Assembly (NCBI GenBank): GCA_000092065.1
Contig: CP000581.1
Reading direction: 5' to 3' (one strand)
DNA length: 64,000 nucleotides
From: Ostreococcus lucimarinus
Lineage: Eukaryota
Positions 1,862 through 58,362 of this stretch are shown in pieces. The position numbers and the translations under genes are program-made. Under the pieces are notes generated by a model. That model was given only the letters and a program-made list of their open reading frames with translations. It was not told where the DNA came from and made no database searches. The number at the start of each line of letters is the position of its first letter. Position 1 is the stretch's first letter.

Positions 1862-3387
1862 TTATTTAGAGCTACCTACGTTCCAAAATCTCAGCTGTCC
1901 GTCGTCGCCGCCGCTGCACAGCCGTTCGCCTCCGTGGTAATCCACGGCGAAGTTTTTCCCGTCGTGCGACGAAACGCTGTGCAGTGGCACTCTACCACGA
2001 ATATCCCATAACTTGACTTTTCCGTCGTATCCACTACTCACGATGTGATGCTCGTTTGTTGGACTCCATCGAACGCACGACACCCACCCCTGCGTTTCAA
2101 ATCGCGCGCGTCAGTCAATCGGCGAAACAATTCATTCCGCGAAACAAATTTTTGCGCGCCGCTCGCAAAGTCTCAGTAAAAAATTAGAGTGATTGATTGT
2201 GCCCTCACGCACGAGTGTCGGGAATCAAAAGTGTGTTCATCACTGACTTTGCGAACGGGCGCGAGCGCGAGCGAGAGTACACATGACGACAAACTTACCT
2301 CGTGAGATTTGAGCTTCAGGCACGCCTTTGCCGACGCCGACTCTCGCGGATCCCACACGTTAACCAGGCGGTCGCTCCCCCCGAAAGCGAACCTACTTCC
2401 TCCCCTCGAGACATCCAAGGTATGGACTGAACTGTTCGTATGATGAGACTCCTTCTCTTCGCCAGTCTCCACGTCCCACGCTCGGATCGTATTATCGTAT
2501 GCGCCGGTCCAAAGTACTTGCGGGCTTTCCCAGGAAACCGCTCGCACTTGATCCGTGTGCCCACGCAACACGAGCTCCTCGCCGAGACCAATTTTCGCGC
2601 TCGCATCGTCGACCATCGCGTCGTCGTCTGTAGCCTCCGATTTCTTCGATGTTCTGCGCTTCTTCGTTACCTTTTCGTTCGCCGACTCGCCACCGTCGAT
2701 TTTCCACACTCGCGCCGTGCAGTCGACGGAACACGAGGCGAACAGTCGAGCGCCGTACGCGCTCGCGACGTCCGTCACAGTGCCCTCGTGACCCTTGAAA
2801 ACACGCTGCTCCCCGAGTTCACACTTTTTCCCAGTCAGCGTCACCGCATACGATCGCAAGGTGTGATCCGCCGAAGCCGCTAACACCACACACGCGTTTT
2901 CTGCGTCCGCGCCGGCGCTCGGCGGCGCCAAGCTCACCGAGCACACGCGCTCTTCCGCGCCTTCCAACTCGCACAGCAACTTACCCACGGGTGACCACAA
3001 CCGTGCTTTACCGTCGAAGGACCCCGTGACGACCGCTTTCGCCCAACTTCCATCGATCGAGCTCACCCACGCCTCGCATTTCGTCGTCTCAGCCGCCGTC
3101 GGCGGTCCCAGCGCCGGCACGTACTCCACCACCAGCGTCGCCTCCGCGCTCTTCCCGAGCCTCAGCGCCAACTTCGCCAGCGACGTGCGCAAAAGCGTTC
3201 CATCGATGAGGAAATCAAACGGCGTCGGCGTCGTCGCGCCGAGCAGGTGATTCACCACCTCGCTCAAGCCGTACCTCGTCAGCCGGCCCGGCACCTCGAT
3301 CGCGCTCTCACTCACGCGAAACTCCTCGGGCAGGCGCGTGACGAAGCTCACCGCGATCTCGACATCGCTCGCGTCCTCGTTCGACAT
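1862..3387 (-). CDS. WDR12: Ribosome biogenesis protein WDR12/Ytm1 homolog. Two exons: complement(2299..3387) and complement(1862..2089); intron ~2090..2298 (GTAAGT...CAG)
   Basis: N-terminal NLE/ubiquitin-like domain (MSNEDASDVEIAVSFVTRLPEEFRV...LSEVVNHLL) followed by WD40 repeats. The C-terminal WD repeat (GWVSCVRWSPTNEHHIVSSGYDGKVKLWDIR...) is a separate 73-aa ORF in the track. The two parts join in phase 0 through a GAG|GTAAGT donor and a CAG acceptor, giving ~438 aa like WDR12. The ATG at 3387..3385 was checked. The upper intron edge is +/-1 nt. Confidence 0.85.
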
Positions 3388-17185: not shown

Positions 17186-18186
17186 ATGTCCGCTTCGTTT
17201 GCCACCGTCCAACCGAGCGTCCGCGCGCGCGCGACGCTCCGATCCCGCGCGAGACGCGCCGATCGATCGTCGATCGTCGTCCGCGCGGGCAGCGCGGCGC
17301 AACAAAAAGGTCTCGGCGATCTCGACACCGTCAAGCTCACCGCCGCCGACGGTTCCACCGCGGACGTGTACTTGTTCGGCGGCGTCGTGACGAGTTTCAA
17401 GCCCAAGGGCGGTGACGACGTGCTGTACGTGCGCCCGGATGCGAAGTTTGACAAGGTGCGTCGGCGGCGAAGCGACGCGCGAGACGCGCTCGGACGATGA
17501 GCGAAGCGATGGAAGACTGACTGCGGTGTGGTAAACACAATCGCACGTAGAGTAAGCCGATTTCTGGTGGTTTGCCGCACTGCTGGCCGCAGTTCGGCCC
17601 GGGGGCGATTCAAGTGCACGGATTCGCGCGCAACGTCGACTGGACGCTCGTGAGCACGACGGATGGCGACGAACCGTCGATGACGATGGAACTCACGCCA
17701 AATGATTACACCAAGGCGATGTGGGATAAGGATTTCAAGGTGACGGAAACCGTCACGCTCAAGGGCGGCGCGCTCGAGGCGAAGCTCGTGGTTGAGAACA
17801 AGGGCAAGGAAGCGTTCGATTTCACTGGTTCGTTCCACACGTACTTGAGCGCCGACATCAACGCCGCCGCCGTCGGCGGGTTGAACGGCTGCAAGACGTT
17901 AGATCGACTCGCGGAGAAGGAATCCACCGTCTCTGGTGACGTCAAATTCCAAGGACCGATCGACAGCGTGTACTACGGCGTTCCGGAGACGCTTACGCTC
18001 GCCACGGGCAAGCGCACTGTGAGCATCAAGTCGAGCAAGACGTGGACAGAAGCCGTGGTGTGGACGCCGTGGACGGACATGGAGGCGTGCTACAAGGAGT
18101 TCGCGTGCGTCGAAAGCGCCGCCGTGACTCCGGTCGTCGTCGCTCCGGGCGGCTCTTGGACCGCCACCACGACGATTTCCGCGTAA
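17186..18186 (+). CDS. Glucose-6-phosphate 1-epimerase-like (aldose 1-epimerase/YeaD family). Two exons 17186..17455 and 17551..18186; intron 17456..17550 (GTGCGT...TAG)
   Basis: Exon 1 ends ...LYVRPDAKFDK. Exon 2 begins SKPISGGLPHCWPQFGP, matching the family motif SKPISGGIPxCFPQFG. The track splits the gene into 17186..17500 and 17572..18186, in different frames. The phase-0 join gives ~302 aa. The intron holds the GACTGAC branch motif 29 nt upstream of the AG. Minus ORF 17005..17838 is antisense junk. Confidence 0.8.
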
Positions 18187-19381: not shown

Positions 19382-20204
19382 CTAATCCATTCTGCTCTTT
19401 AACGTCCTGGTGAACGTCCCGTTGCCCTTGGTGACGACGGTCACGACTCCACCCCAACCGCTCAAACAATCTCTGTTCACGCCCGAGGTCAAGCAGTGCG
19501 AGATGACCTCGAACAACGCCTCGGGATCCAAGTCGCGCTTGTAAAACGACTCGCACACGCCGAAGAGCGACTCGACGTTGTCACCCGCGACGACGAAATC
19601 GTCCGTCGAGGCGTCGGCACCGATCAAATCCATGCTCGTGATGTACGGTTTACCATCTGCATCTAATCCGGCGACCACGGGTTCGGTGTAATACGGTGAG
19701 AATCGTTTCTCGTACAGCGTCGCGCTCACCACCGCGCCGAACACCTTCGGCGACATCACGCGGTTCTCCCGAAGTTCATACATGTCGTGCTTAAACTTTA
19801 ACTTTTGCGCCAGCGTGAGTTGATCGGCGATCAATCCCGTGAGTCCCAAGTACAACCGATCGTGGATCTTGTGCAACTTGGAGTAATCCACCGCCGCGGT
19901 TTGGTTTTGGTTGATGCCCAACCTGAGATCGGACGCGATCGCCACGCAATCCTTCCCCGTCATCGCTGCGTCGCGCGCCGCGCCGTGGTCGTTCGCGCGT
20001 CGTCAGTCACCGTTCATTCGCGTGCGTTCGCGCGTCGCGCGGCACCGTCGCGTCGCGCGTCGCATCGCGCGTCGCGTCGGACGTCGCGCGTCTTCGAATC
20101 GAACCCGCGTCGTCGTCGTCGTCGTCGTCGCGCGTCGTCGCCGTCGTCGTCGTCGTCGCGCACGCACCGATGACGGCGGCGCCGTTGTAGCTCATGATGC
20201 TCAT
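19382..20204 (-). CDS. PSMB3: Proteasome subunit beta type-3 (PSMB3/Pup3). Two exons complement(20168..20204) and complement(19382..~19965); intron ~202 bp (GTGCGT...CAG)
   Basis: Exon 1 gives [12 protein letters not shown] plus one G. Exon 2 supplies CG (Ala) and continues [14 protein letters not shown]...TRTLKSRMD. The result is collinear with human PSMB3 ([28 protein letters not shown]...TRTLKARMD) at ~206 aa. The donor is ATCG|GTGCGT and the GACTGAC branch motif lies 36 nt before the CAG. Confidence 0.9.
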
Positions 20205-22631: not shown

Positions 22632-23645
22632 TCAGCGAGTCTTCGACTTTGATCTCGAATTTGATAGTGAGTCCCTGCAGGCGAGGTAACCGTACATCCA
22701 TGGCATGGCGAGTGTCATCTTGATGAACAAGTGATTGCACCACTGTCTGTCCACGATACCATCTCGTAACAATGTGTAGGCGTTCTCTTGCCAGAACATC
22801 ACCCCCATGCAAAGCGGTTCAAGGACCGCACCGTGCAGCAAGCAGTACTTTGCCTGCAAGTTCGGCGGGAACGACGCCATGGCCACCGCAAGGCCGATGA
22901 TACACGATAGGATGCCGATTGCTAGATGATTTACCATCGCGTACTCGAATCGAGTACCGACTTTGAAATAGTACAGAAGCACCGGATCGCCGAACGCGAA
23001 TGTCGCCCCGTACAGCGCCAACAGAACCCAGTTGAAAAGCATCACCGTATGCGCCGTATTTCGCGGCTTATAAAACGGTCTCACGCGAGGAATCCCTGAA
23101 GACGTCGTCACGCAAAACACTACCGCCAGTCCAAACGAAATCATGAGCGACGACTGACGATAGAAATCCACCAACGTCGCGTTCCCCCGTCCCTGCCCTC
23201 GCCCTTGCGCCCCCTCGAACATCAACAACCCGATCCGCAAATAATTCGCGACCGCCGCGCGATGCACCCACTTCATTCGCACCGCCTCATCGCCCCACCG
23301 AATCACCATCAAAGTCTCTAACACCTCTCTAAAATGCATCACCGTGCACCACATGGACATCGAAAAGAATTCCCTCGTCGCGTTTTCCGCGTTGAAAAGC
23401 CGCTGTCCCGCGTCTTTACCGAACCACGCGAACGGCGCTCCGCACAGCATCTGCGCGAGCGCGAACGCGATGCAGCACCACAGCGCGGGTTTCGTGCCGA
23501 AGAGCGCGCTCGCGATCGCACCGCGCGGCGTCGTTCGTCCAATTCTTCGTCCATCGCGGTCCCTCGTCCGACCGCTCGCGCTCGTCGTCGCCGTCGCGCG
23601 ATCGCGCGCGCTGTCGCTCGCGGTCGTGCTGCTCGCGCGCGTCAT
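22632..23645 (-). CDS. Hypothetical polytopic membrane protein (~6 predicted TM helices), family not recognised
   Basis: The C-terminal 337 aa of track ORF 22632..24509 has normal composition and clear hydrophobic helices (ALWCCIAFALAQMLCGAPFAWF, LMISFGLAVVFCVTT, VMLFNWVLLALYGATFAF, LAIGILSCIIGLAVAMA). The upstream part of the track ORF is antisense of bS6 and Arg-rich junk. The proposed ATG is at 23645..23643 (MTRASSTTASD...). Confidence 0.5.
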   Translation of the reverse strand: MTRASSTTASDSARDRATATTSASGRTRDRDGRRIGRTTPRGAIASALFGTKPALWCCIAFALAQMLCGAPFAWFGKDAGQRLFNAENATREFFSMSMWCTVMHFREVLETLMVIRWGDEAVRMKWVHRAAVANYLRIGLLMFEGAQGRGQGRGNATLVDFYRQSSLMISFGLAVVFCVTTSSGIPRVRPFYKPRNTAHTVMLFNWVLLALYGATFAFGDPVLLYYFKVGTRFEYAMVNHLAIGILSCIIGLAVAMASFPPNLQAKYCLLHGAVLEPLCMGVMFWQENAYTLLRDGIVDRQWCNHLFIKMTLAMPWMYGYLACRDSLSNSRSKSKTR

Positions 23646-23853
23646 GTCGCGCGCGCGTCGCCGGACGACGTGGCGATCCGTCGCGCGCGCGGTGTGGTCG
23701 CGCGCGCGATGTGACGATCGCGTCAGGTTTTCGCGCGCGTCATCGCGTCGTCGCGCGGCAGTGCGCGACGCGCGCGAGCGGCACGACCGCGCGCGGCGAG
23801 CGAGGGCGCGCGCGCGAGCGTCGGCGACGCGCGGGCGACGCGCGGGCGACGGG

Positions 23854-24413
23854 ATGGTGCTGTACGACGCGATGATCGTCGTGAGCGCCAAGGTGCCGAA
23901 GACGGCGTGCGCGGACGTGCTGCGACGACTCGGCGCGAGCGTCATGGACGCGGGCGGGGTGGTGACGAACGTGGCGTCGTACGGCGCGCGGACGCTGGCG
24001 TACGAGTTTCGTCGACCGGGGGAGAAACACTTCGAGGTGCGGCGACGGAGGAGCGAACGATCGCGGGGGTTTGCCAGACGAGACGCGAACGCGAACCGAA
24101 CGAGGACGTCGTCGACGCGCGCGTGCGAGCATCGATGATGGCGCGGCGCGGTGATGATGAATGCGATGAAGGATGGCGACTGACGGCGAGGCGTGAGCGG
24201 CGATCGGACGCGCAGGCACAGTTTGTGAAGATGTCGTTTAACGCGCCGCCGACCCTCGTGGCGGAGGCGGAGCGCACGCTGCGCATCGACGAACGGGTCT
24301 TGCGGTGGGTGATCACGAAAAAGCGCGCTATGAGGCGATTGAATGATTATAAGGCGCACGATCCGAGGAATCCGAACGCGATGCAGAGTTATGATGGGCG
24401 GAAGCCGTCCTGA
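23854..24413 (+). CDS. rps6: Organellar ribosomal protein bS6. Two exons 23854..24036 and 24216..24413; intron 24037..24215 (GTGCGG...CAG)
   Basis: Exon 1 gives MVLYDAMIVVSAKVPKTACADVLRRLGASVMDAGGVVTNVASYGARTLAYEFRRPGEKHFE. Exon 2 gives AQFVKMSFNAPPTLVAEAERTLRIDERVLRWVITKKRAM... This matches the bS6 pattern (Y.i..v.p......v...i...GG.v....G.r.LAY.I....aHY..m.f.ap). The two halves sit in different track ORFs, 23344..24138 and 23907..24413. An Arg-rich presequence may start at the ATG at 23644. Confidence 0.75.
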
Positions 24414-24949
24414 GGGGCTCGAGAGGTGCGGCGGCGCTACGCGTTTGATTTTTTCGTCGACGGAACCGAGCGCGATCGACGATACCCGCGTGAGCTGTTC
24501 GTGAAACACGCGTTCACTCTGCGGATGACGATCAAAATTTAGTTATCCCTGTCTTACTCGCCGTGGCCGGCGTCGTATGATGATTAAGTTATTAGCTCTA
24601 GCCGACGCACGAGCGGCGCGGAGCGAATAGCGATCGCGGGACTGTCGACGAGCGCGCTTGGTTCTCTTTTTTCTCTCTTTTTTGCGTCCAGTCACACACG
24701 TTTGCCGATGAGGATGAAATCTTATCTTAGCGGATTTCTCTGATTTTTCGTGAGGAAATTCAAGACAACTGTTACACAACGCCAAGGCAATGGGTTTTCT
24801 CGACTCGACGGCGTGTCAGGAAGAACGTGGACGATGATAATCTACATATTCGGATTCCCTCAGAGCATGAGCAGTGATCGAGCATGTAACAACCTGACAC
24901 GTTTTCCTGTCACTTGTTTTTGGAGATGACGAACGATGAGCGAGGGAGA

Positions 24950-26823: not shown

Positions 26824-26997
26824 GAGCCGGCGAGGCGCGAAGTGCGGTGGAGGGCGCGCGAACGACCGCGCTCGCGGTCGCGGTCGCTGAGCTCGATTTC
26901 GCGTGGATGGCGTGGAAATGCATGGAAGTAGGCGTCGTATTTAAAGCGCGACGCTCGATCGCGCGCGTGATGGTCGTCAGAGCATCGACCGAAGCGG

Positions 26998-27703
26998 TCA
27001 AGCCTTCGTGTACATCTTCGCCAGGTCGTCGAGCGAGTGATCGAGATGGCAGCAAAAGTCGGTGTCGACGTTTTGTTTGCACTTCATCGCGTTTTGCATC
27101 ACCAAGTGGTGAATCTTGAGCGCGTCGACGTAATCCTCCGGCGACATCTCCGCCGCCTTGACGCGTTGGCAGAGACAATATTCGCCGATGAGGGCGATGA
27201 TCTTCCCGCAGTGTTCTTCCTTGGTCATCACCCACCGCATGGACTGGTTCAACTTCACCGGATCCGACAACCCACCGGCGAGCTCATTGATCTGCGTCAT
27301 GGCTTTTCGAATCGTCGCCGACATTTCGCGAAGACTCGCCACCATGGCGGGATCGTCGAAAATCCCGCACGGCACTTGACAGTGCCCACCGCGCACGCGC
27401 ACGCGCGCGTGCACGGTAGATTCGTTTTCGAGCGCCGCGTCGTCCCGCAGCACCGCGCCGCGCGCGTCGGTTAAGTAATCGAACGCCGCGCCTCGGCGTC
27501 GCAGCGCCGCGCGCGCCGACCCCGCCGTCGCCGCGTCCCTAACCACCAGCGTCTTTCCCTCCACTGCGCGCGCGCGCGTTCGAGCGTTTCGTCAGTCGCG
27601 CGCTCGCCGTCGTCGTTCGCGCCTTCGCCACGCGTCCCGCGCCGACGCGTCGATCGCGCGCGCGCGGCGCGCGACGCGCACCCGTGCGCGCGAAGATTTG
27701 CAT
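26998..27703 (-). CDS. sodN: Nickel superoxide dismutase (NiSOD, sodN) fused to a degenerate N-terminal ubiquitin-like leader. Two exons complement(27682..27703) and complement(26998..27563); intron 27564..27681 (GTGCGC...CAG)
   Basis: The Ni-hook HCQVPCGIF follows directly after ...VHARVRVRGG. The leader MQIFARTVEGKTLVVRD...LENESTVHARVRVRGG aligns with ubiquitin (MQIFVKTLTGK...QKESTLHLVLRLRGG). The track ORF begins at a GTG with no in-frame ATG. The real ATG CAA ATC TTC GCG CGC ACG G sits 118 bp upstream and joins through a G|GTGCGC donor and a CAG acceptor, with GACTGAC 27 nt upstream of the AG. The split codon G+TG gives Val. Confidence 0.85.
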
Positions 27704-27775
27704 GTCGAGTCGATTCGTCGTAAAGTGACGCGACTTCGTCGTCGCGACTTCGACGCGCGTCCGAGGCGCGCGCGC

Positions 27776-33102: not shown

Positions 33103-36100
33103 ATGACGACGACGACGATCGCGCGGTGCGTCGAACTCGCGGACGAACTCCGTCGTGGGTCCGCGCAAGGCGGCGATGGTCGCGCGAAACGAGGCGCGAC
33201 GACGCGCGATGCGGCGACGGTGTTGGAGGTGCGGCGATGCGATTTGAATCTCGCGCGCGCGCGATCGCGCGCGCGCGACGCGACGCGCGCGCGGTCGGGC
33301 GAGGACGGCGCGCGAGGGGCGAAGGACGATTTGACTGACGATGCGGTGTCGCGGAACGGCGACGATGACGCGCGACGGTAGGCGTTGGCGGACGCGCTGA
33401 GCAAGGTGGACCAGGGCGGGGAGGGCGCGAAGGCGCTCGAGTCGACGACGAAGACGCTCACGACGCGGAAGATGATGACGAACGAGAGTAAGAAGGTTCG
33501 GGTGTTGACGGCGCTGTGCGTGTCGGATATCATGCGCGTGTGCGCGCCGGAGGCGCCGATTGCGGGGGATGAGGCGATGCGAGACGTGTACGAATTGTTC
33601 TTGGACGCGCTGGGGAGTTTGAAATCCATCGAGAGCGAGGAATTCGAAGCGGCGAAGAGTTTGTTGGTGAACGTGGCGAACATTGGGCTGTGCGTGCCGA
33701 TGTTGGATTTGGAGTGCGCCGGCGCGGAGACGCTCGTGCGCGATCTGTTCAAGGTTTTACTGGACGCGGTGAACGCGGCCAACTCGACCACGGTGACGGA
33801 AGAAATCAGCAAGGTGCTATCGACGATGATTGAAGAAAGCTCGGACGAGGACACTCCGGTGCCTTCTGACGTGACGTTTGAGGTGTTGTCGCGGTTGATT
33901 GATCCCGTGCGCACGGAGAATCCGGCGTCGTACATGTTAGCGGGCGAACTCGTTCGAAAGTGCGAGCATCAGCTGCACACGCCGATTCAGACGTTTTTGA
34001 CGCAGGCGATGCATGGACTCGTGGATGAAGACGACGCGCTCGCGTCCTTGAGTAAACGTCACGTGGATATCATCGAAGAAATCGCGGTATGCGATCCCAC
34101 GGCGCTCGTCACCGTATGGCCTTCGGTGACGGACGATTTGCAGGCGGATGATTTGAGCACGCGACTGCGAGCGGTGAAGCTCTTCCGTCGAGTGTTCGCG
34201 TACGAGGGATCAACAACGGCCGAGGATTACCCGCACTTGCTGCTCGAGTTCGTTCGTCGATTTAACGACAAGGCGGTTGAAGTTCGCGCGGAAATGATCA
34301 AGTGGAGCTCGAAGTTTTTGAAGACACGCGTCGATCCAAACGCCGCGCTCACCTCTGTGCCGGCGGCGACCGTCATGAAGCAACTACGAGAGCGTTTACA
34401 TGATTTCGACGACACGATTCGTACGGCGTCCATCAACGCGTTGTGTGACGTGTTAGACAAACCGACTTCGACTGAGATTTTCCCGCATGATCTCGTTCTT
34501 GAGATCGGTGAACGCATCAAGGACAAGAAATCGGGGGTGCGAAAGACGGCGCTGAAACGCTTGTGCATCGCGTACCGCGCGTACGCGCAACGCTGCGCCG
34601 ATGACGTGCCGGCTTGGGAAATGAAACGATTTGACTGGATCCCGGGCGCTCTTCTGCGTGCTATCACGATTCCAGATGTGCGCTTACACGTCGTCGAGCC
34701 CGTGCTCGCGATGCTTTTCCCGGCCAAGATGTCCGCCGACTTGCGCAGCACCTTCTGGCTGCGCGCTTTGAACCTCGCCGACGCGTTCACCGTTCGATGC
34801 TTGAAGCATTTCTTGCTCGCCAAGTCTCGTATTCAAGCCGACATGCGTGAGTACTTGCTCCTTCGTTCGAAACTGAGCAAGATGAACAAGAAGGAAGGCG
34901 ACGCTGCGTTGACGAAGATCGTAGACGCCATCAAGGTGCACTTTCCGGATAAGCAAAAGGCGAAAACGGCGATGATGGCGTTACATGCGCAGAAAGATGG
35001 GAATGTTTTCAGATGCATTCAAACTATGTTGAATCCGGAGACTTCTTTCGCGAACGCGGTGAAGGCTGAAGAGGACGCCACAAAGCGTGCGAAGTCTAGT
35101 TCACAAGCGGTGGATCAAGAATTCATTAAGACACTATTGTTGAAGATCCAGTCCGCGCCGTTTGGACGTGAGCACGTGCGCGGCACCCTCAAGGCCGCAT
35201 GTAAGGCTACTCGAGCCGCGCAAACGTCAAAGAACACCAGCACCCCTCAAGGAGTTGTCGTCGCACTCGAACACTTGTGCATTCTCGCTGAAACATTCCC
35301 CAAACTGTTCTCCGGATGTGGCGATGAGATTGACGAATTACTCGATGCTAATGATCAATTGACGGTTACATCTACGTGCAAGGTTGTTTCAGAAGCCGCG
35401 GCGGCGCTCAAAGTAACTCCTCGCCGAGGGTCGATTTGGGAAAAGTTGAAGGTGAAGTGCTCGAGCGGCGATCGAAAGCAAGCCAAGTTGGCGACGAAGG
35501 CGCTCGGTTTGTTACAAATGGATCTCGACGAGCGAATCGATGCCACTGATATCATCGCTGGAGCGACTGCCGGGCAGTTGAGCGATGTTTATCTCCATAT
35601 CGTCGAACTTCTCGCCGAAGACTTGGTCGCCGACTCTGATCTCCCCGCCGTGCTCGGCGCCGTCGGCAGCATCGGCACTTTGCACCAGCAAATCTTCATG
35701 TTACAACTCGCCGAAGTCGAGCAGTACGTGGTCCACACCCTTTTGACGCGTCCACCACCAACGGGCCGCATCGCCGTCGGTGTCGTGAGCGATCTCGCGA
35801 CTTTGCAAGCGTATGGTTTGAAGGCGCTTGCCAAGGCGGCGGCGCATCGTTCCGCCGCCGATACCGTCGAGTCCTCCTTCACTACACGCGTGATCGAGCT
35901 GCTCCATAGCTATGCCGATATCGACTCTTACAAGAATGATGGTATGTTTGCGGAATACTCAGGCACAGATGCTGCGCATTTGCGATTCACCGCATGCAAG
36001 GCAATGCTTGGTATTTCTCGCAACGCGGCGATTGGCTTGGTCAAACCCGACGCCTGGATTTGCGTCTCCATGTTCTTGCATCAGTGTGAGTCCGCGACGA

Positions 36101-49015: not shown

Positions 49016-49137
49016 CGCGCGCGCGCGTCGACCGAGCCTCGCGCGCGACGTGCCGAGACGCGTACGCGCGCCGGTGAGTGCGGCGCCGACGCGGCTTGCG
49101 CCATTCGTCGGCGTCGCGCGCCCGCGACGCGCGATCG

Positions 49138-49884
49138 ATGGCGATGCGCGCGTCGCTCGCGATGCGCTCGAGCGCGTCGGCGCTCGAGCTTCGATGCGCG
49201 CGACGCGCGCGCGTCGCGCGCGCGCGACGCGCGGCGATGATGACGTCGGCTGCGAGTGGGACGACGCGCGTGAACGTCCCGAGCGACGCGCCGTCGGACG
49301 CGCTGGAGGCGCTGCGCGCGGTAGAAGTGATGCGCGCGATCGACGGCGCGCGCGTCACCGTGCCCGAGGTCGTCGGCGCGCGAGGCACGGTGGTGGTGCA
49401 GTTCCTGAGGTCGTTTGGGTGATTTTTCGCGAGCGAGCGAGCGGTGGAGCTCGCTCGCGACGCGATACCGACGCTCGATGCGGCCGGCGTGCGATTGGTG
49501 GTGGTTTCGATCGGAACGCTGGAACGAGCGAAGGATTTTAGCCGGGAGAATGATTTTCCGATCGAGTTGCTGTACGCGGACGCGGAGAGCGCGACGTACG
49601 AGGCGTTGAAGCTGCGAAAGGGCGCGAAACAGACGTTCATGGAGAAGTCGACGCCGGAGAGCATTCTGAAGCGATGGAACAAGGATGGAGCGAAAGATTT
49701 GCTCGGGGTGTTGAAGCGTTGGAAGCCGTGGTTGCCGCCGAGACCGGACCAAGGGTATCAACAAGGCGGCTCGTTCGTGTTTCGAGACGGCGTCGCGACG
49801 TACGTCTCGTACGACGTCTCCACGGGAGCGCACGCGCCGTTGGACGACATTTTCGAAGCCGCGGGCGTCTCGACGTCGAATTAG
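49138..49884 (+). CDS. selU: Candidate selenoprotein U (SelU/PRXL2/AAED1 family, thioredoxin-like) with an in-frame UGA (49420..49422) read as selenocysteine, plus an organellar-type presequence
   Basis: Track ORFs 49078..49422 and 49444..49884 are in the same frame with exactly one TGA between them. Read through, the junction is TVVVQFLRSFG-U-FFASERAVELARDAIPTL...LVVVSIGTLERAKDFSRENDFPIELLYAD. This matches the PRXL2/SelU active-site region (AVIMAVRRPGCFLCREEAADL), with U in the position of the first Cys. The start may be 49138 (MAMRAS...) or 49237 (MMTSAASG). Confidence 0.7.
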
Positions 49885-50124: not shown

Positions 50125-50568
50125 CTACGTACGCCGACTCAGTGTCCGTCCCCCTTCGACGCCTTCACGCTCGCCACGCGCTTCATGTACCTACGCGCGA
50201 GCGCACAAACGCGACGATTATTCCGTCAGTCGCCCATCGCGCCGCGCGCGCGTTCGCTCAGACACCATCAAGCGCGACACCGATCGCCATCGCCACCGTC
50301 GCGCCGATCGCCGTCGACGCCTCGCGCGCGACGCGCGTCCGACGCGCGCGCGACGCGTCGATCGAGGTCGCACGCACTCTTTGTATTGACACTTCTCGTA
50401 CACGTGTCGCTCGTGCCCGCACTTCCACGGGAGGTAGAAGGATTTGCGCCTGCACTCGTTCAGTGGGATGAGAAGGTGCGCGCAAAAGTCTCTGTATCCG
50501 ATGTCGAGCTTGGCGCGCTTCATGTCCTCGCGCGAGGCTATCATTTCGCTTTGGTCGGACGAGCCCAT
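50125..50568 (-). CDS. NDUFB7: NADH dehydrogenase [ubiquinone] 1 beta subcomplex subunit 7 (NDUFB7/B18). Probably two exons complement(50374..50568) and complement(50125..50190); intron 50191..50373
   Basis: MGSSDQSEMIASREDMKRAKLDIGYRDFCAHLLIPLNECRRKSFYLPWKCGHERHVYEKCQYKEC is collinear with plant NDUFB7 (twin Cx9C, ...LPWKCEDERHVYEKCEYE). After ...KEC the unspliced ORF runs into an Arg-rich tail. TGC|GTGCGA fits the local donor consensus. An intron with GACTGAC 34 nt before a TAG acceptor would give the C-terminus VHEARGEREGVEGGRTLSRRT. Confidence 0.7.
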
Positions 50569-52637: not shown

Positions 52638-52751
52638 CGCGCGACGGACGCGCGCGTCGCGTCTGCGTCGCGGAATACCGTTCGTCAACCGACCGCTCGA
52701 GCGCGACGCGACGCGCGCGCGTCAGTCGTCGGCGCGCGCGCGACGGCCCGC

Positions 52752-53663: not shown

Positions 53664-55002
53664 ATGCTCGCCGCGATCGCGAAACGCGCCGCCTCGTCAG
53701 CGTGCGCCCGGACGGTGCGCGCGACGCGAAGCGACGACGCGCGAGTCGACGATCGCTCGACGCGTGGGATCGATTGCGAAACGATCGGTCGCGCGCGCGA
53801 CGCGGTGACGCGCGCTCGCGCGCTCGAACGACGGCGAAACGAATGACTGATGGATCGCACGCGAACAGACGACGACGCACGCGCGTTGGACGCGGGCGTT
53901 CGCGGCGGATGCGAACGATGAGAAGATGGTCATCGAGACGCCGGTGCCGTTCAAGGGACATCTCATCGTACCGCCGTCGCAGATGGTGGAGACGACGAAG
54001 AGCGAGATTATCGATATGTTCACGCAGGCGTACATGATGCGTCGATTGGAGATCGCGGCGGATGTGCTTTATAAGGGGAAGTTTATTCGCGGTTTTTGTC
54101 ACCTGTACGACGGTCAAGAGGCGGTGTGCGTGGGCATGGAAGCGGCGTTGAATAAGCAAGACGCGGTGGTGACGTCGTATCGGGATCATTGTATTCATCT
54201 TGGTCGTGGAGGGACGCCGCTCGAGGTGATGGCGGAGTTGATGGGACGCGTGGACGGCGCGGCGAAGGGGATCGGCGGGTCGATGCACATGTACCGCCGA
54301 GAGGCAAACTTTTTCGGCGGCAACGGCATCGTCGGCGCGCAGACCGCGATCGGGGCCGGTTTGGGGTTCGCATTCAAGTACAACAAACAACCGAATGTGG
54401 CGGTGACGATGTATGGAGACGGGGCGGCGAATCAAGGGCAGTTATTCGAGGCGCTCAACATGGCGGCTCTCTGGGATTTGCCCGTGATTTTCATGTGCGA
54501 AAACAACCATTACGGTATGGGTACCGCACAAGATCGCAGTGCGAAGAGCCCTGTCTATTACAAGCGTGGGGATTACGTTCCGGGTTTGAAAGTTGACGGC
54601 ATGGACGCCCTCGCGGTGAAGCAAGCGATGAAGTTCGCGAAGGAGTACTGCGTCGCGGGCAACGGCCCGATCGTGATGGAGATGGACACGTACCGTTACC
54701 ACGGCCACTCCATGAGCGACCCGGGAAGCACGTACCGTACGCGCGATGAAATCACGGGCATTCGCCAAGAGCGCGATCCCGTCGAGCGTTTGCGCAAGCT
54801 TATCACTGAACATAATTTGCTCGACGCGACGCAAATTAAGCAAATCGAAAAGGAGCAACGGCGCATCGTCGACGAGGCTGTCGAGCAAGCCAAGGCGAGC
54901 CCGCTGCCGCCGAACGAAAACTTGACTAAAAACATGAACACCAACTTGGAGAACATCGTCGTTCGCGGCGTAGACTCGCAGACTTTCCACGCTTTAGTTT
55001 AA
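53664..55002 (+). CDS. PDHA: Pyruvate dehydrogenase E1 component alpha subunit, mitochondrial. Exon 2 = 53869..55002; putative presequence micro-exon 53664..53714 (intron 53715..53868, GTGCGC...CAG)
   Basis: Exon 2 covers the whole mature enzyme ([11 protein letters not shown]... [19 protein letters not shown] ... TPP motif GDGAANQG ... [21 protein letters not shown]). The in-frame sequence upstream of its ATG ([19 protein letters not shown]) has no Met and follows a CAG. An upstream exon [17 protein letters not shown] ends in ACG|GTGCGC in a compatible phase and would give a typical mitochondrial presequence. The branch-like motif AATGACTGATGG lies 17 nt before the CAG. Confidence 0.85.
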
Positions 55003-57257: not shown

Positions 57258-58362
57258 ATGCGCGCGCGCGTCGATGACATTTTACGCGCGCAGCCTACGT
57301 CGCAGAGTATCCCCGCCGAAGTCGTCGCGTACGAACTCAAGCGACTCATCCTCGAGGTGTGCCCCGCGCGCGACGATTCGCGTCCCGAGGCGCAAGACTG
57401 ACCATGTGACATAGCTCGACGAAAACGTCCACGACAGCGCGCGCTCGTCAACCTGGCCGTCCGTCCGTACATTTTTCGTCGACTCTCTGCAGTTGATCGA
57501 GTCGTCCGAGCCCGCGCGACGGGTCGCTGAAGCGTTGCGCGATTTGGAAGCGAGCTTTCTGATCACGTCTCAAAAACAGCAATGGCTCGACGGCGAACGC
57601 GAGGATTGGCTTGAGACCGTGCGCCTAGTTGCACGAGTGGTTGATCGACCGTTGATGACTTTTGGGTTACTGAGAGTGATTGGTTCTTTGCTGAACGATC
57701 TGGCGATGTCGCTGAAGGAGGGTTCGTTCGTGCCGGCGTTCACGCGCCCTCGGACAGCCGTCGATGCGACGAGGAAATCGTTGTGGCACGCTCGAGTGGA
57801 GGCGATCTTGATCAGTGGTATCGCGACCGACGAGCGCGACGCGCGCGTGCTCGAAGAGCGATACTTTAGCGACGTGTTGCGACTACGCGCGCCCGAGGCG
57901 AGCGAACAGCCGGTTTTGTTGAACGCCACGCGGTTCGTCGCGCCGATGCCTCGCGAAGAAACTCGAGTTCCCGCGGAGCGGGAACGCGAGCTCAGACTCG
58001 CGCAGTCGTACAACTTTTCTACGGATGTACTTATACGAAGACAGGAGACTCGACGGCGATGTGCGCCACGAAGGCTCATGATTAGCGATGAGGACGAAGA
58101 TGATCCTTACAGCGCCGTCGGCGGCGACGCGGAAGAGCTTGAAAGACTTCGCGGCGAGGTCGCTCGATTGCAAATCGAACGCGAGCAAGAGGTATTGTGC
58201 ACGATTTGCTACTCGAACAAGCGTGACACTGTCGTGTGTCCGTGCTTACACTTGATGTATTGCAGCGCGTGCATCGCGCGACTTCGAGACCAGGGAGGGA
58301 GCGAAGCGCGGTGTCCACATTGTCGATGCGCGATGACGGGGTTGTTGCAAATATTCTCGTGA
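57258..58362 (+). CDS. RING-type (C3HC4, C-terminal) E3 ubiquitin ligase. Main exon 57493..58362 (or from 57415); probable upstream exon 57258..57356
   Basis: C-terminal RING CTICYSNKRDTVVCPCLHLMYCSACIARLRDQGGSEARCPHCRC. The track ORF begins at a TTG directly after the acceptor-like catttttcgtcgactctctgcag. The in-frame region has no ATG for 54 codons. Upstream ORF MRARVDDILRAQPTSQSIPAEVVAYELKRLILE ends in GAG|GTGTGC. GACTGAC at ~57396 sits 12 nt before one possible acceptor (ATAG at 57414) and 95 nt before the CAG at 57492. Both acceptors keep the frame. Confidence 0.6.

What the first reader, a model, noticed from the sequence alone, without database searches (positions are those of the whole stretch)
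17456..17550. Shared intron grammar: donor G|GTGCG(T/G/C/A) and a conserved GACTGAC branch motif 17-43 nt upstream of the AG in at least 9 introns missed by the ORF track
I reconstructed introns by homology. WDR12: ~2090-2298, GTAAGT donor. G6P-epimerase: 17456-17550. PSMB3: ~19966-20167. bS6: 24037-24215. NiSOD: 27564-27681. PDS5: 33229-33381. NDUFB7: 50191-50373. PDH-E1a: 53715-53868. RING: 57357-57414/57492. All end in YAG. Eight of nine start with GTGCG or GTGTG after a G/exon-final purine. Every one contains GACTGAC, in the forms gatggcGACTGACgg, gatgggcGACTGACgg, gatggaaGACTGACtg, ggtGACTGACga, gattGACTGACgc, tttGACTGACga, cgcGACTGACga and caaGACTGACca (GACTGAT in one case). The motif lies 17-43 nt before the 3' splice site, i.e. 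a yeast-like, highly constrained branch point. Lengths cluster at 95-210 nt. This grammar correctly predicted two 5' exons (NiSOD, PDS5) whose products then matched homologs. It can be used to re-annotate the region.
Basis: seen in the sequence. Interest (0 to 1): 0.65.

Follow-up and report, generated by a model that had tools for sequence, protein, structure and literature searches.

The report
Known green-alga intron splicing signals
The nine gaps in these genes are real spliceosomal introns of a tiny marine green alga, and their shared start (GTGCG) and branch-site (GACTGAC) signals are the ones already published for Ostreococcus and Micromonas, so the pattern is correct but ordinary.

Summary
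All nine intervals are GT..YAG introns. Eight carry GACTGAC and one GACTGAT, with the branch A 13-43 nt before the 3' splice site. Seven start with GTGCG, one with GTGTG and one with GTAAGT. GACTGAC is not enriched in the window overall (11 seen, 9 expected). However, 8 of the 11 copies lie on the sense strand of introns, which make up 1.06% of the strand-specific sequence (69-fold, p 2.5e-14).

Every junction is supported by Pfam profile continuity or by orthologous loci from metagenomic relatives. In those relatives exon conservation stops at the GT and resumes at the AG. The intron interior diverges and the motif persists.

Two boundaries need correction. The NDUFB7 donor is at 50377, not 50373. 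The RING acceptor is at 57414, giving a 58-nt intron.

The grammar matches what Irimia & Roy (2008) reported for Ostreococcus lucimarinus: GTGCGTG, ACTGAC in 87% of introns, GACTGACG in 66.5%, CGCAG, and a branch-to-AG distance of 20-35 nt. Verhelst et al. (2013) reported the same for Micromonas. It is therefore already known. The introns are not introner copies.

One less ordinary result came out. The flagged G6P-epimerase intron sits at three positions (0, +9, +31 nt) in sibling lineages. It sits at a fourth position in a distant lineage and is absent in others.

The parts
17456..17550 (+). G6P 1-epimerase intron, 95 nt, phase 0. Donor aag|GTGCGT, acceptor ACGTAG|agt.
   Evidence: The spliced product gives one Aldose_epim match, residues 48-300 against profile 2-299/299, spanning the junction at aa 90/91. 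Intronless orthologues (L028, L029, L005, M. pusilla L007) read RPDAKFDKSKPISGGLPHCWPQFG without a break.
17515..17521 (+). Branch motif GACTGAC (aaGACTGACt). Branch A is 30 nt from the 3' splice site.
   Evidence: The first AG downstream is the acceptor.
2090..2298 (-). WDR12/Ytm1-like intron, 209 nt, phase 0. Donor gag|GTAAGT, acceptor ACGCAG. 50% GC. Hosts a box C/D snoRNA candidate.
   Evidence: A WD40 repeat match at 358-392 spans the junction at aa 363, and an NLE domain lies at the N-terminus. No relative's locus covers this gene.
2110..2116 (-). Branch motif GACTGACG, 21 nt from the 3' splice site.
19966..20167 (-). PSMB3 intron, 202 nt, phase 1. Donor tcg|GTGCGTG, acceptor ACGCAG.
   Evidence: The Proteasome profile 3-189/189 spans the junction at aa 12/13. 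The same position is used in L005/L009 and L012. Exon identity stops at the GT and resumes at the AG.
20002..20008 (-). Branch motif GACTGACG, 37 nt from the 3' splice site.
   Evidence: The motif is kept in both relatives although the intron interior has diverged.
24037..24215 (+). Ribosomal protein bS6 intron, 179 nt, phase 0. Donor gag|GTGCGG, acceptor GCGCAG.
   Evidence: The Ribosomal_S6 profile 2-90/90 spans the junction at aa 61. The same position is used in L009 and L012.
24178..24184 (+). Branch motif GACTGACG, 32 nt from the 3' splice site. Two AGs lying 7 and 14 nt after the branch A are skipped.
27564..27681 (-). Ubiquitin-NiSOD intron, 118 nt, phase 1. Donor cgg|GTGCGC, acceptor GCGCAG. 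Exon 1 encodes MQIFART.
   Evidence: Alignment A3 shows residue 1 aligned with MQIFVKT of ubiquitin-NiSOD fusions. L012 has the same junction with GTACGC..GACTGACG..GCGCAG.
27591..27597 (-). Branch motif GACTGACG, 28 nt from the 3' splice site.
33229..33381 (+). PDS5 intron, 153 nt, phase 0. Donor gag|GTGCGG, acceptor CGGTAG.
   Evidence: The PDS5 profile starts 3 aa before the junction, upstream of the first ATG of the long ORF. L012 has an intron at the same codon..TLE|GLADALSRVDQGG, with GACTGACG.
33333..33339 (+). Branch motif GACTGACG, 43 nt from the 3' splice site.
50191..50377 (-). NDUFB7 intron, 187 nt, phase 2. Corrected donor aga|GTGCGTG, acceptor GCGTAG|gtacatgaag.
Evidence: The corrected model scores 105.8 bits against profile 1-61/63. 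GGA|GTGCGTG and AG|GTACATGAA are conserved in L016 and L019, giving ..QYKEYMKRVAS..*.
50225..50231 (-). Branch motif GACTGACG, 35 nt from the 3' splice site.
53715..53868 (+). PDH E1-alpha intron, 154 nt, phase 0. Donor acg|GTGCGC, acceptor GAACAG. It lies in the presequence.
   Evidence: Exon 1 ([10 protein letters not shown]..) is conserved as MLGSIARRAA / MLGAIARRAV in L016 and L019. Both have GTGCGC..GACTGACG..GATAG at the equivalent place.
53845..53851 (+). Branch motif variant GACTGAT, 18 nt from the 3' splice site.
57357..57414 (+). RING-finger gene intron, 58 nt, phase 0. Donor gag|GTGTGC, acceptor ACATAG.
   Evidence: The sequence after 57414 (LDENV..) is conserved coding sequence (LDDAV..) in L016 and L019. 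tblastn of the short-intron model starts exactly at aa 34 with a better E-value (5e-57 against 6e-49). The exon 1 end ..LILE|GTG is conserved.
57396..57402 (+). Branch motif GACTGACC, 13 nt from the 3' splice site.

Best explanation
These are ordinary U2-type spliceosomal introns in a small, intron-poor green alga of the class Mamiellophyceae. The alga is an unnamed lineage that these databases hold only as metagenomic contigs. I infer that it is most likely Ostreococcus-like.

In this group most introns carry near-invariant signals:
- a 5' splice site G|GTGCG(T), read by U1 and then U6 snRNA;
- a branch site (G)ACUGAC(G), whose penultimate A is bulged when the motif pairs with the GUAGUA box of U2 snRNA and attacks the 5' splice site;
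- the first AG about 15-45 nt downstream, often CGCAG, as the 3' splice site.
No polypyrimidine tract lies between the branch site and that AG.

Shown here: the intervals interrupt reading frames exactly, and removing them restores conserved proteins. The boundaries and the motif are conserved across species while the intron interiors are not. The motif is essentially confined to the sense strand of introns.

Inferred here: the A of GACTGAC is the lariat branch point, and the stringency reflects selection for efficient recognition in an intron-poor genome. That last idea is Irimia & Roy's hypothesis.
For: - GT..YAG boundaries and the motif are present in all nine introns.
- GACTGAC is 69-fold enriched on the sense strand of introns, p 2.5e-14. 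None lie on the antisense strand. The whole-window count is at the chance level.
- The first AG after the motif is the acceptor in 8 of 9 introns.
- Pfam profiles are continuous across five junctions. Ubiquitin homology supports NiSOD exon 1.
- Twelve orthologous introns of seven genes in relatives sit at the same codon positions. Eleven have GACTGAC and one has GACTGAT, although interiors differ in sequence and length. Exon identity drops exactly at the GT and returns at the AG.
- Precise removal of 17456-17550 reproduces the uninterrupted sequence of intronless orthologues.
- The published consensus is identical. O. lucimarinus EST-confirmed non-chromosome-2 introns have GTGCGTG, 87% ACTGAC, 66.5% GACTGACG, a CGCAG preference and a branch-to-AG distance of about 20-35 nt. 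Micromonas has AG|GTGCGT and NCTGAC.
- The window gives 8/9 ACTGAC, 6/9 GACTGACG, 4/9 CGCAG, and a median motif-to-AG spacing of 27 nt.
Against: - There is no transcript evidence for this organism. No spliced full-length protein of the window species was found in the protein collection, so splicing itself is inferred.
- Branch-point use of the A has not been mapped.
- The G before ACUGAC and the G after it are not explained by pairing with a canonical U2 GUAGUA box. Irimia & Roy also found no snRNA explanation.
- Three GACTGAC copies lie outside the verified introns. One of them, 52727(-) in a 5' leader, is unexplained.
- Short 5'-UTR introns, or introns lacking the motif, could have been missed. 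'Every intron has it' therefore rests on 9 of at least 9.
Confidence: 0.92

Rival explanations
1. The introns resemble each other because they are copies of a mobile intron family, like the introner elements of Micromonas. On this view the shared strings such as gatggcGACTGACgg reflect common descent, not a splicing signal.
For: Micromonas carries thousands of introner elements, and the IE-C class of RCC299 has a conserved GACTGACG. Several window introns share GC- and CG-rich interiors, and mononucleotide-shuffle z-scores reached 17.
Against: With dinucleotide-preserving shuffles, no intron pair stands out: the best z is 3.6 among 36 pairs, and the scores are explained by CG/GA-rich composition. 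Lengths range from 58 to 209 nt. Seven of the nine introns occupy the same codon positions in relatives at 67-92% amino-acid identity, so they are old. Orthologous introns have already lost all similarity except the signals.
Confidence: 0.03
2. GACTGAC is a chance or compositional feature of GC-rich non-coding DNA and has no function.
For: The total count in the window equals the shuffle expectation (11 against 8.96). Three copies lie outside introns.
Against: Eight of 11 copies fall in 1.06% of the strand-specific sequence, all on the sense strand and all 13-43 nt from the 3' splice site. The motif is retained in 11 of 12 orthologous introns whose remaining sequence has diverged. In relatives' loci of about 21 kb, most copies again mark introns.
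Confidence: 0.01
3. The motif is a conserved intronic element with a role other than the branch site. It could be a binding site for a splicing enhancer protein, with the true branch lying elsewhere.
For: The branch point was not mapped. The flanking G residues of GACTGACG are not accounted for by canonical U2 pairing. The G6PE relatives tolerate GACTGAG and TATTGAC.
Against: ACUGAC fits the universal CURAY / yeast UACUAAC branch consensus, with the bulged A in register (established knowledge of U2-branch-site pairing). One relative has the yeast consensus TACTAAC at that place (L041). The distance to the AG and the AG-free stretch after the motif are what a scanning 3' splice-site choice from a branch point predicts. 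The literature treats it as the branch site.
Confidence: 0.04

Closest known systems
Canonical (non-chromosome-2) introns of Ostreococcus lucimarinus (Irimia & Roy 2008, PMC2483917)
   Same: Donor GTGCGTG. ACTGAC in 87% of introns (8/9 here). Extended GACTGACG in 66.5% (6/9 here). CGCAG acceptor preference (4/9 here). Branch-to-AG distance about 20-35 nt (median 27 here). Intron-poor genome: about 9 introns in about 30 genes here.
   Different: The window organism is not identifiable as O. lucimarinus. Its closest relatives in the databases are unnamed metagenomic contigs. Named Mamiellophyceae are only 62-64% identical for G6PE and 79-83% for CYP97B. The branch-to-AG range here is somewhat wider, 10-40 nt.
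Canonical introns of Micromonas RCC299 and CCMP1545 (Verhelst et al. 2013, PMC3879977)
   Same: Donor AG|GTGCGT and branch motif NCTGAC. High-GC introns. They coexist with other intron classes.
   Different: Micromonas is reported to have the branch 43-52 nt from the acceptor; here it is 13-43 nt. Micromonas has more introns per gene, plus introner elements.
Introner element class IE-C of Micromonas RCC299
   Same: Short introns with a conserved GACTGACG branch site. The 58-nt RING intron is of similar size.
   Different: IE-C members are sequence-similar copies at novel positions. The window introns show no mutual similarity beyond the signals. The RING intron is positionally conserved in relatives.
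Hemiascomycete yeast introns (UACUAAC branch site, GUAUGU donor)
   Same: An intron-poor genome with near-invariant donor and branch sequences, and 3' splice-site choice by the first suitable AG downstream.
   Different: The consensus sequences differ (GUGCGU and GACUGAC) and arose independently by convergence, as argued by Irimia & Roy.

Membership tests
Mamiellophyceae canonical constrained spliceosomal introns (Ostreococcus/Micromonas type) | GT-AG boundaries that restore an open, homologous reading frame when the interval is removed | tested here: met
   Nine of nine.
Mamiellophyceae canonical constrained spliceosomal introns (Ostreococcus/Micromonas type) | 5' splice-site consensus (A)G|GTGCGT(G) | tested here: met
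   GTGCG in 7/9 and GTGCGT in 3/9. The exon-final base is G in 8/9. The exceptions are GTGTGC and GTAAGT.
Mamiellophyceae canonical constrained spliceosomal introns (Ostreococcus/Micromonas type) | ACTGAC branch motif in most introns, often extended to GACTGACG | tested here: met
   ACTGAC in 8/9 and GACTGACG in 6/9, against published figures of 87% and 66.5%.
Mamiellophyceae canonical constrained spliceosomal introns (Ostreococcus/Micromonas type) | Branch-to-AG spacing of a few tens of nt, with a CGCAG-like acceptor | tested here: met
   Motif-to-AG spacing is 10-40 nt with a median of 27. CGCAG in 4/9 and CGYAG in 6/9.
Mamiellophyceae canonical constrained spliceosomal introns (Ostreococcus/Micromonas type) | Removal from transcripts, and a lariat at the motif's A | not testable with these tools
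   No transcript data are available for this organism. The protein collection holds only exon-wise ORF calls for it.
Introner elements (Micromonas IE-A/B/C/D, transposon-like repeated introns) | Significant sequence similarity among many introns of one genome | tested here: not met
   No pair exceeds dinucleotide-shuffle controls convincingly (maximum z 3.6 of 36 pairs). Only 9 introns of one 64-kb window were compared.
Introner elements (Micromonas IE-A/B/C/D, transposon-like repeated introns) | Lineage-specific, novel positions absent from close relatives | tested here: not met
   Seven of the eight introns that could be checked are at conserved positions in relatives. Only the G6PE intron varies in position or presence.
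BOC1-type introns of Mamiellophyceae outlier chromosomes | Short, low-GC introns without a discernible branch motif | tested here: not met
   The introns here are 50-79% GC and all have the motif.

The most novel reading that the evidence does not exclude
The flagged G6P-epimerase intron may be a rare documented case of intron relocation over more than one base, or of a true insertion hot spot.

The coding stretch RPDAKFDKSKPISGGLPHCWPQFG is invariant. Within it the intron lies:
- after FDK in the window species and a 92%-identical relative (position 0, phase 0);
- after SKP in two other sibling lineages (+9, phase 0);
- inside the Cys codon in two more (+31, phase 1).
The nearest outgroup lineages and Micromonas have no intron at all. 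A distant lineage, sister in the tree to an intronless group of contigs (about 62% identical to the window), has its own intron at +16. No locus has an intron anywhere else in the gene.

The intron-bearing lineages are monophyletic, and a +9 lineage branches first (99.7% bootstrap). That implies one gain followed by at least two exact relocations, or several independent gains within 31 nt. Reverse splicing of the excised intron into a nearby site of its own transcript, followed by cDNA-mediated gene conversion, would explain exact relocation without any change to the protein.
Probability: 0.45. Interest if true: 0.55.

Novelty: already known. Interest (0 to 1): 0.25.

Why it matters
For annotation, the result is practical. 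Prokaryote-style ORF callers split these genes. The metagenome records call exon 1 and exon 2 of G6PE, bS6, PSMB3 and NiSOD as separate or truncated proteins. A simple rule recovers them. On either strand, GACTGAC followed by the first AG 10-45 nt downstream, with a GTGCG-type donor 50-200 nt upstream, marked a verified intron for 8 of the 11 GACTGAC copies in this window.

Biologically it adds one more lineage to the known picture of convergent, very strict splice signals in intron-poor eukaryotes. It does not change that picture.

The part that could matter to specialists is the G6P-epimerase intron. Its position differs by 9 and 31 nt among sibling species with an unchanged protein. A standard review states that sliding beyond one base lacks evidence. 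This locus offers a concrete test case for sliding against parallel gain.

Tried and rejected
I used the unspliced PhyH neighbour instead.
- Naming the organism failed. Its closest relatives carry no taxon names. 'Ostreococcus-like' is inferred from the intron grammar, about 60% GC, gene density, Mb-scale relatives' contigs, and slightly higher identity to Bathycoccus than to Micromonas.
- Mononucleotide shuffles suggested intron-intron homology. Dinucleotide shuffles removed it.
- tblastn suggested PDS5 was intronless in L012. Reading the DNA showed an intron at the same codon, so the HSP had read through it.
- MAFFT pairwise alignments of orthologous introns did not put the GACTGAC copies in register because of indels. 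I located them by search instead.
- Sequence similarity could not decide sliding against independent gain for G6PE. Even same-position introns of different lineages show none.
- The phylogeny of the inner G6PE clade is unresolved.
- The Rfam gathering scan of the window found nothing. No SECIS was found downstream of the candidate Sec gene.
- A 5'-UTR intron around 52727(-) was considered. There is no convincing donor and the motif is not conserved in relatives.
- I did not search for U1 or U2 snRNA genes of this organism. None are in the window, and no tool can scan the collections with an RNA model.

Full report
**What is at the coordinates.**
Window 17456-17550 (+) lies between two ORFs of one gene. 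The upstream ORF ends ..RPDAKFDK and the downstream one starts SKPISGGLPHCWPQFGPG... Joining 17186-17455 to 17551-18186 gives a 301-aa protein. It matches the Pfam aldose 1-epimerase profile in a single stretch, residues 48-300 against profile 2-299 of 299, running across the junction at residue 90/91. Homologues are annotated glucose-6-phosphate 1-epimerase. The interval starts aag|GTGCGT, holds GACTGAC at 17515-17521, and ends ACGTAG.

**The nine introns.**
I rebuilt each spliced product and tested it.

Pfam profiles run unbroken across the junction for:
- G6PE;
- PSMB3 (Proteasome 3-189/189, junction at aa 12);
- bS6 (Ribosomal_S6 2-90/90, junction at aa 61);
- the WDR12/Ytm1-like protein (NLE domain plus a WD40 repeat spanning the junction);
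- NDUFB7.

That model gives ..CQYKEYMKRVASVKASKGDGH* and scores 105.8 bits over profile 1-61/63. In two relatives the same GGA|GTGCGTG donor and AG|GTACATGAA acceptor are conserved, and the frame ends at a conserved stop.

The NiSOD 5' exon encodes MQIFART. The spliced protein aligns from residue 1 with ubiquitin-NiSOD fusion proteins of diatoms and Guillardia (MQIFVKT..LRGG|HCxVPCG).

For PDS5, the Pfam match begins 3 residues before the junction and about 30 residues before the first ATG of the long ORF, so an upstream exon is required.

**Relatives.**
The window organism is not a named genome in these databases. Metagenomic contigs 99.4-99.8% identical to the window exist (L001-L004, L030-L036). 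More distant syntenic contigs give sibling lineages:
- L012-L015, from Mb-scale contigs, 83-93% amino-acid identity;
- L005 and L009-L011, 67-84%;
- L016/L018 at 88% and L019 at 92%.

Named taxa are far. For G6PE, Micromonas pusilla is 62% identical, Mantoniella beaufortii 64% and Bathycoccus prasinos 63%. For CYP97B, Bathycoccus is 80-83% and M. pusilla 79%. I therefore call it an unnamed member of the Mamiellophyceae. 'Ostreococcus-like' is my inference, not a result.

**Comparative test of the junctions.**
In these relatives the PSMB3, bS6, NiSOD, PDS5, NDUFB7, PDH-E1a and RING introns sit at the same codon positions. In pairwise alignments, exon identity ends at the predicted GT and resumes at the predicted AG, while the interiors differ in sequence and length.

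PDH-E1a exon 1 ([10 protein letters not shown]..) is conserved as MLGSIARRAA and MLGAIARRAV.

For the RING gene, the sequence after the acceptor at 57414 (LDENV..) is conserved coding sequence in relatives (LDDAV..). The short-intron model aligns from exactly its first post-junction residue with the better E-value. The intron is therefore 57357-57414 (58 nt), not 57357-57492.

Of these 12 orthologous introns, 11 keep GACTGAC and one has GACTGAT. Donors vary more: GTGCG, GTACG, GTGGG and GTGAT.

**Is the motif more than chance?**
GACTGAC occurs 11 times on both strands of the window, against 8.96 +/- 3.05 in dinucleotide-preserving shuffles, so there is no overall excess. Its placement is what is extreme. 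Eight of the 11 copies lie on the sense strand of the nine introns, which total 1355 nt or 1.06% of the strand-specific sequence. That is 69-fold enrichment with binomial p 2.5e-14. None lie on the antisense strand of introns. GACTGACG gives 6 of 9 copies inside introns.

The three outside copies are accounted for as follows. One overlaps a stop codon at 1801. One is antisense to a coding ORF at 23152. One lies in the 5' leader of the CYP97B gene at 52727 (-), with no convincing donor and no conservation in relatives.

GTGCG is frequent (326 copies) and only weakly enriched, so the donor alone predicts little.

In 8 of 9 introns the acceptor is the first AG after the motif. In bS6, two AGs lying 7 and 14 nt after the branch A are skipped. 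The stretch between the motif and the AG is not pyrimidine-rich (T 0-26%).

**Not introner copies.**
Micromonas is known for repeated 'introner' introns, so I tested whether the shared strings reflect common descent. Local alignment scores between the nine introns look high against mononucleotide shuffles. They fall within dinucleotide-preserving shuffles, with a best z of 3.6 among 36 pairs. The apparent similarity is CG/GA-rich composition: 6-17% T in seven of the nine and CpG observed/expected near 2 in eight of the nine. Together with the positional conservation in relatives, this rules out a recent mobile family for these introns.

**Comparison with what is published.**
Irimia & Roy (2008, PMC2483917) reported on EST-confirmed O. 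lucimarinus introns outside chromosome 2. They found 87.2% with ACTGAC, 66.5% with GACTGACG, the 'atypical' donor GTGCGTG, a CGCAG acceptor preference, and a broad branch-to-AG peak at about 20-35 nt. Verhelst et al. (2013, PMC3879977) gave AG|GTGCGT and NCTGAC for canonical Micromonas introns. They noted that GACTGACG is the extended Ostreococcus branch site.

The window gives 8/9 ACTGAC, 6/9 GACTGACG, 7/9 GTGCG, 4/9 CGCAG, and a median spacing of 27 nt. A full-text search for the motif returns only these two papers among relevant hits. The mechanism is standard U2-type splicing. The branch-point role of the motif's A is inferred from its fit to the CURAY/UACUAAC consensus and its spacing, and has not been mapped.

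**The flagged intron is positionally unstable.**
This is the one result I did not expect. A metagenome scan with the G6PE protein returned 80 loci. Within the invariant stretch RPDAKFDKSKPISGG(L/V/I)PHCWPQFG, the intron positions are as follows:
- After FDK (position 0): the window species and a 92%-identical relative, L102.
- After SKP (+9 nt, phase 0): L020/L040-43 and L025-27/L038-39.
- Inside the Cys codon (+31, phase 1): L044 and L022/L053-56.
- Inside a Gly codon (+16): L088/L089, a distant lineage about 62% identical to the window that groups beside an intronless set of contigs (L060-L082).
- Absent: L005/L028/L029, M. pusilla and all other lineages.

Match lengths indicate no intron elsewhere in the gene.

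The intron-bearing sibling lineages form one clade next to the intronless L005/L028/L029 group. With G6PE exon 2 plus PhyH (1098 columns), a +9 lineage branches first with 99.7% bootstrap, and the rest is unresolved.

The minimum history is one gain, two exact relocations and one independent distant gain. The alternative is four or more gains within 31 nt. Intron sequences cannot decide between these, because even same-position introns of different lineages share no detectable similarity.

A standard review states that sliding beyond one base lacks support (PMC3488318). Simmons et al. (2015) mention possible insertion hot spots in Micromonas. I report this as the most novel reading not excluded, not as a conclusion.

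**Verdict.**
The grammar is already known for this algal group and is useful for re-annotation. Interest is low, apart from the relocation and hot-spot pattern of the G6PE intron.

Noticed in passing
window 49078-49884 (+), in-frame TGA at 49420-49422: The AhpC-TSA_2 (PRXL2/SelU-like) gene is one reading frame interrupted by a single TGA, in the context FLRSFG-TGA-FFASE. This is the place of the family's redox Cys/Sec. The TGA and both flanks are conserved in relatives L016, L018 and L019, so it is probably a selenocysteine codon. ORF tracks split the gene into 114-aa and 153-aa pieces. Rfam found no SECIS in the 3' region.
   Followed up: partly
window about 2164-2253 (-), inside the WDR12 intron 2090-2298: A box C/D snoRNA candidate: a 9-bp terminal stem CGCAAAGUC/GACUUUGCG, C box GUGAUGA and D box CUGA. 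It gives full-length but sub-threshold Rfam matches (SNORD60 E 0.01, SNORD12 E 0.03), and the fold z-score is -3.15. This probably explains why this intron is longer, 50% GC, and has a GTAAGT donor. From memory only, the guide before the D box looks complementary to a conserved 18S rRNA stretch; I did not test this.
   Followed up: partly
window 26991-27705 (-): The nickel superoxide dismutase is a ubiquitin-NiSOD fusion (..RVRVRGG|HCQVPCGIFDD). A deubiquitinase-type cut would expose the N-terminal His that the enzyme needs. The same architecture is widespread in diatoms and cryptophytes in the search results.
   Followed up: partly
G6PE loci L020-L104 against window 17456-17550: The intron position in the G6P-epimerase gene differs among sibling lineages (0, +9, +31 nt). 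A distant lineage has one at +16, and many lineages have none. See the novel case.
   Followed up: yes
window 52721-52727 (-); also L012 17419 (-) and L016 9939 (-): GACTGAC(G) copies lie in short 5' leader or divergent-promoter regions, 35-90 nt upstream of start codons, without a usable donor or acceptor. They could be chance, 5'-UTR introns or another element. The window copy is not conserved in relatives.
   Followed up: partly
whole window, 2-kb bins: GC content alternates gene by gene. Long genes are 53-56% GC: mTOR at 4-12 kb, PDS5 at 34-38 kb, the PP2C-kinase at 42-44 kb, and the gene at 62-64 kb. Many bins covering short genes are 63-68% GC.
   Followed up: no
window about 13281: Near-identical metagenomic contigs L001 and L002 stop matching the window at this point, upstream of the LeuA-like gene. 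L002 continues with different genes, while L003 and L004 continue collinearly into Pex14 and mTOR. This is either a structural variant or an assembly chimera.
   Followed up: no
window 22635-24542 (-) against 23900-24410 (+): A 636-aa ORF with no Pfam match is called as a gene in the metagenome records. Its upstream end overlaps the bS6 gene on the opposite strand, so the 5' part of that ORF is probably not coding.
   Followed up: no
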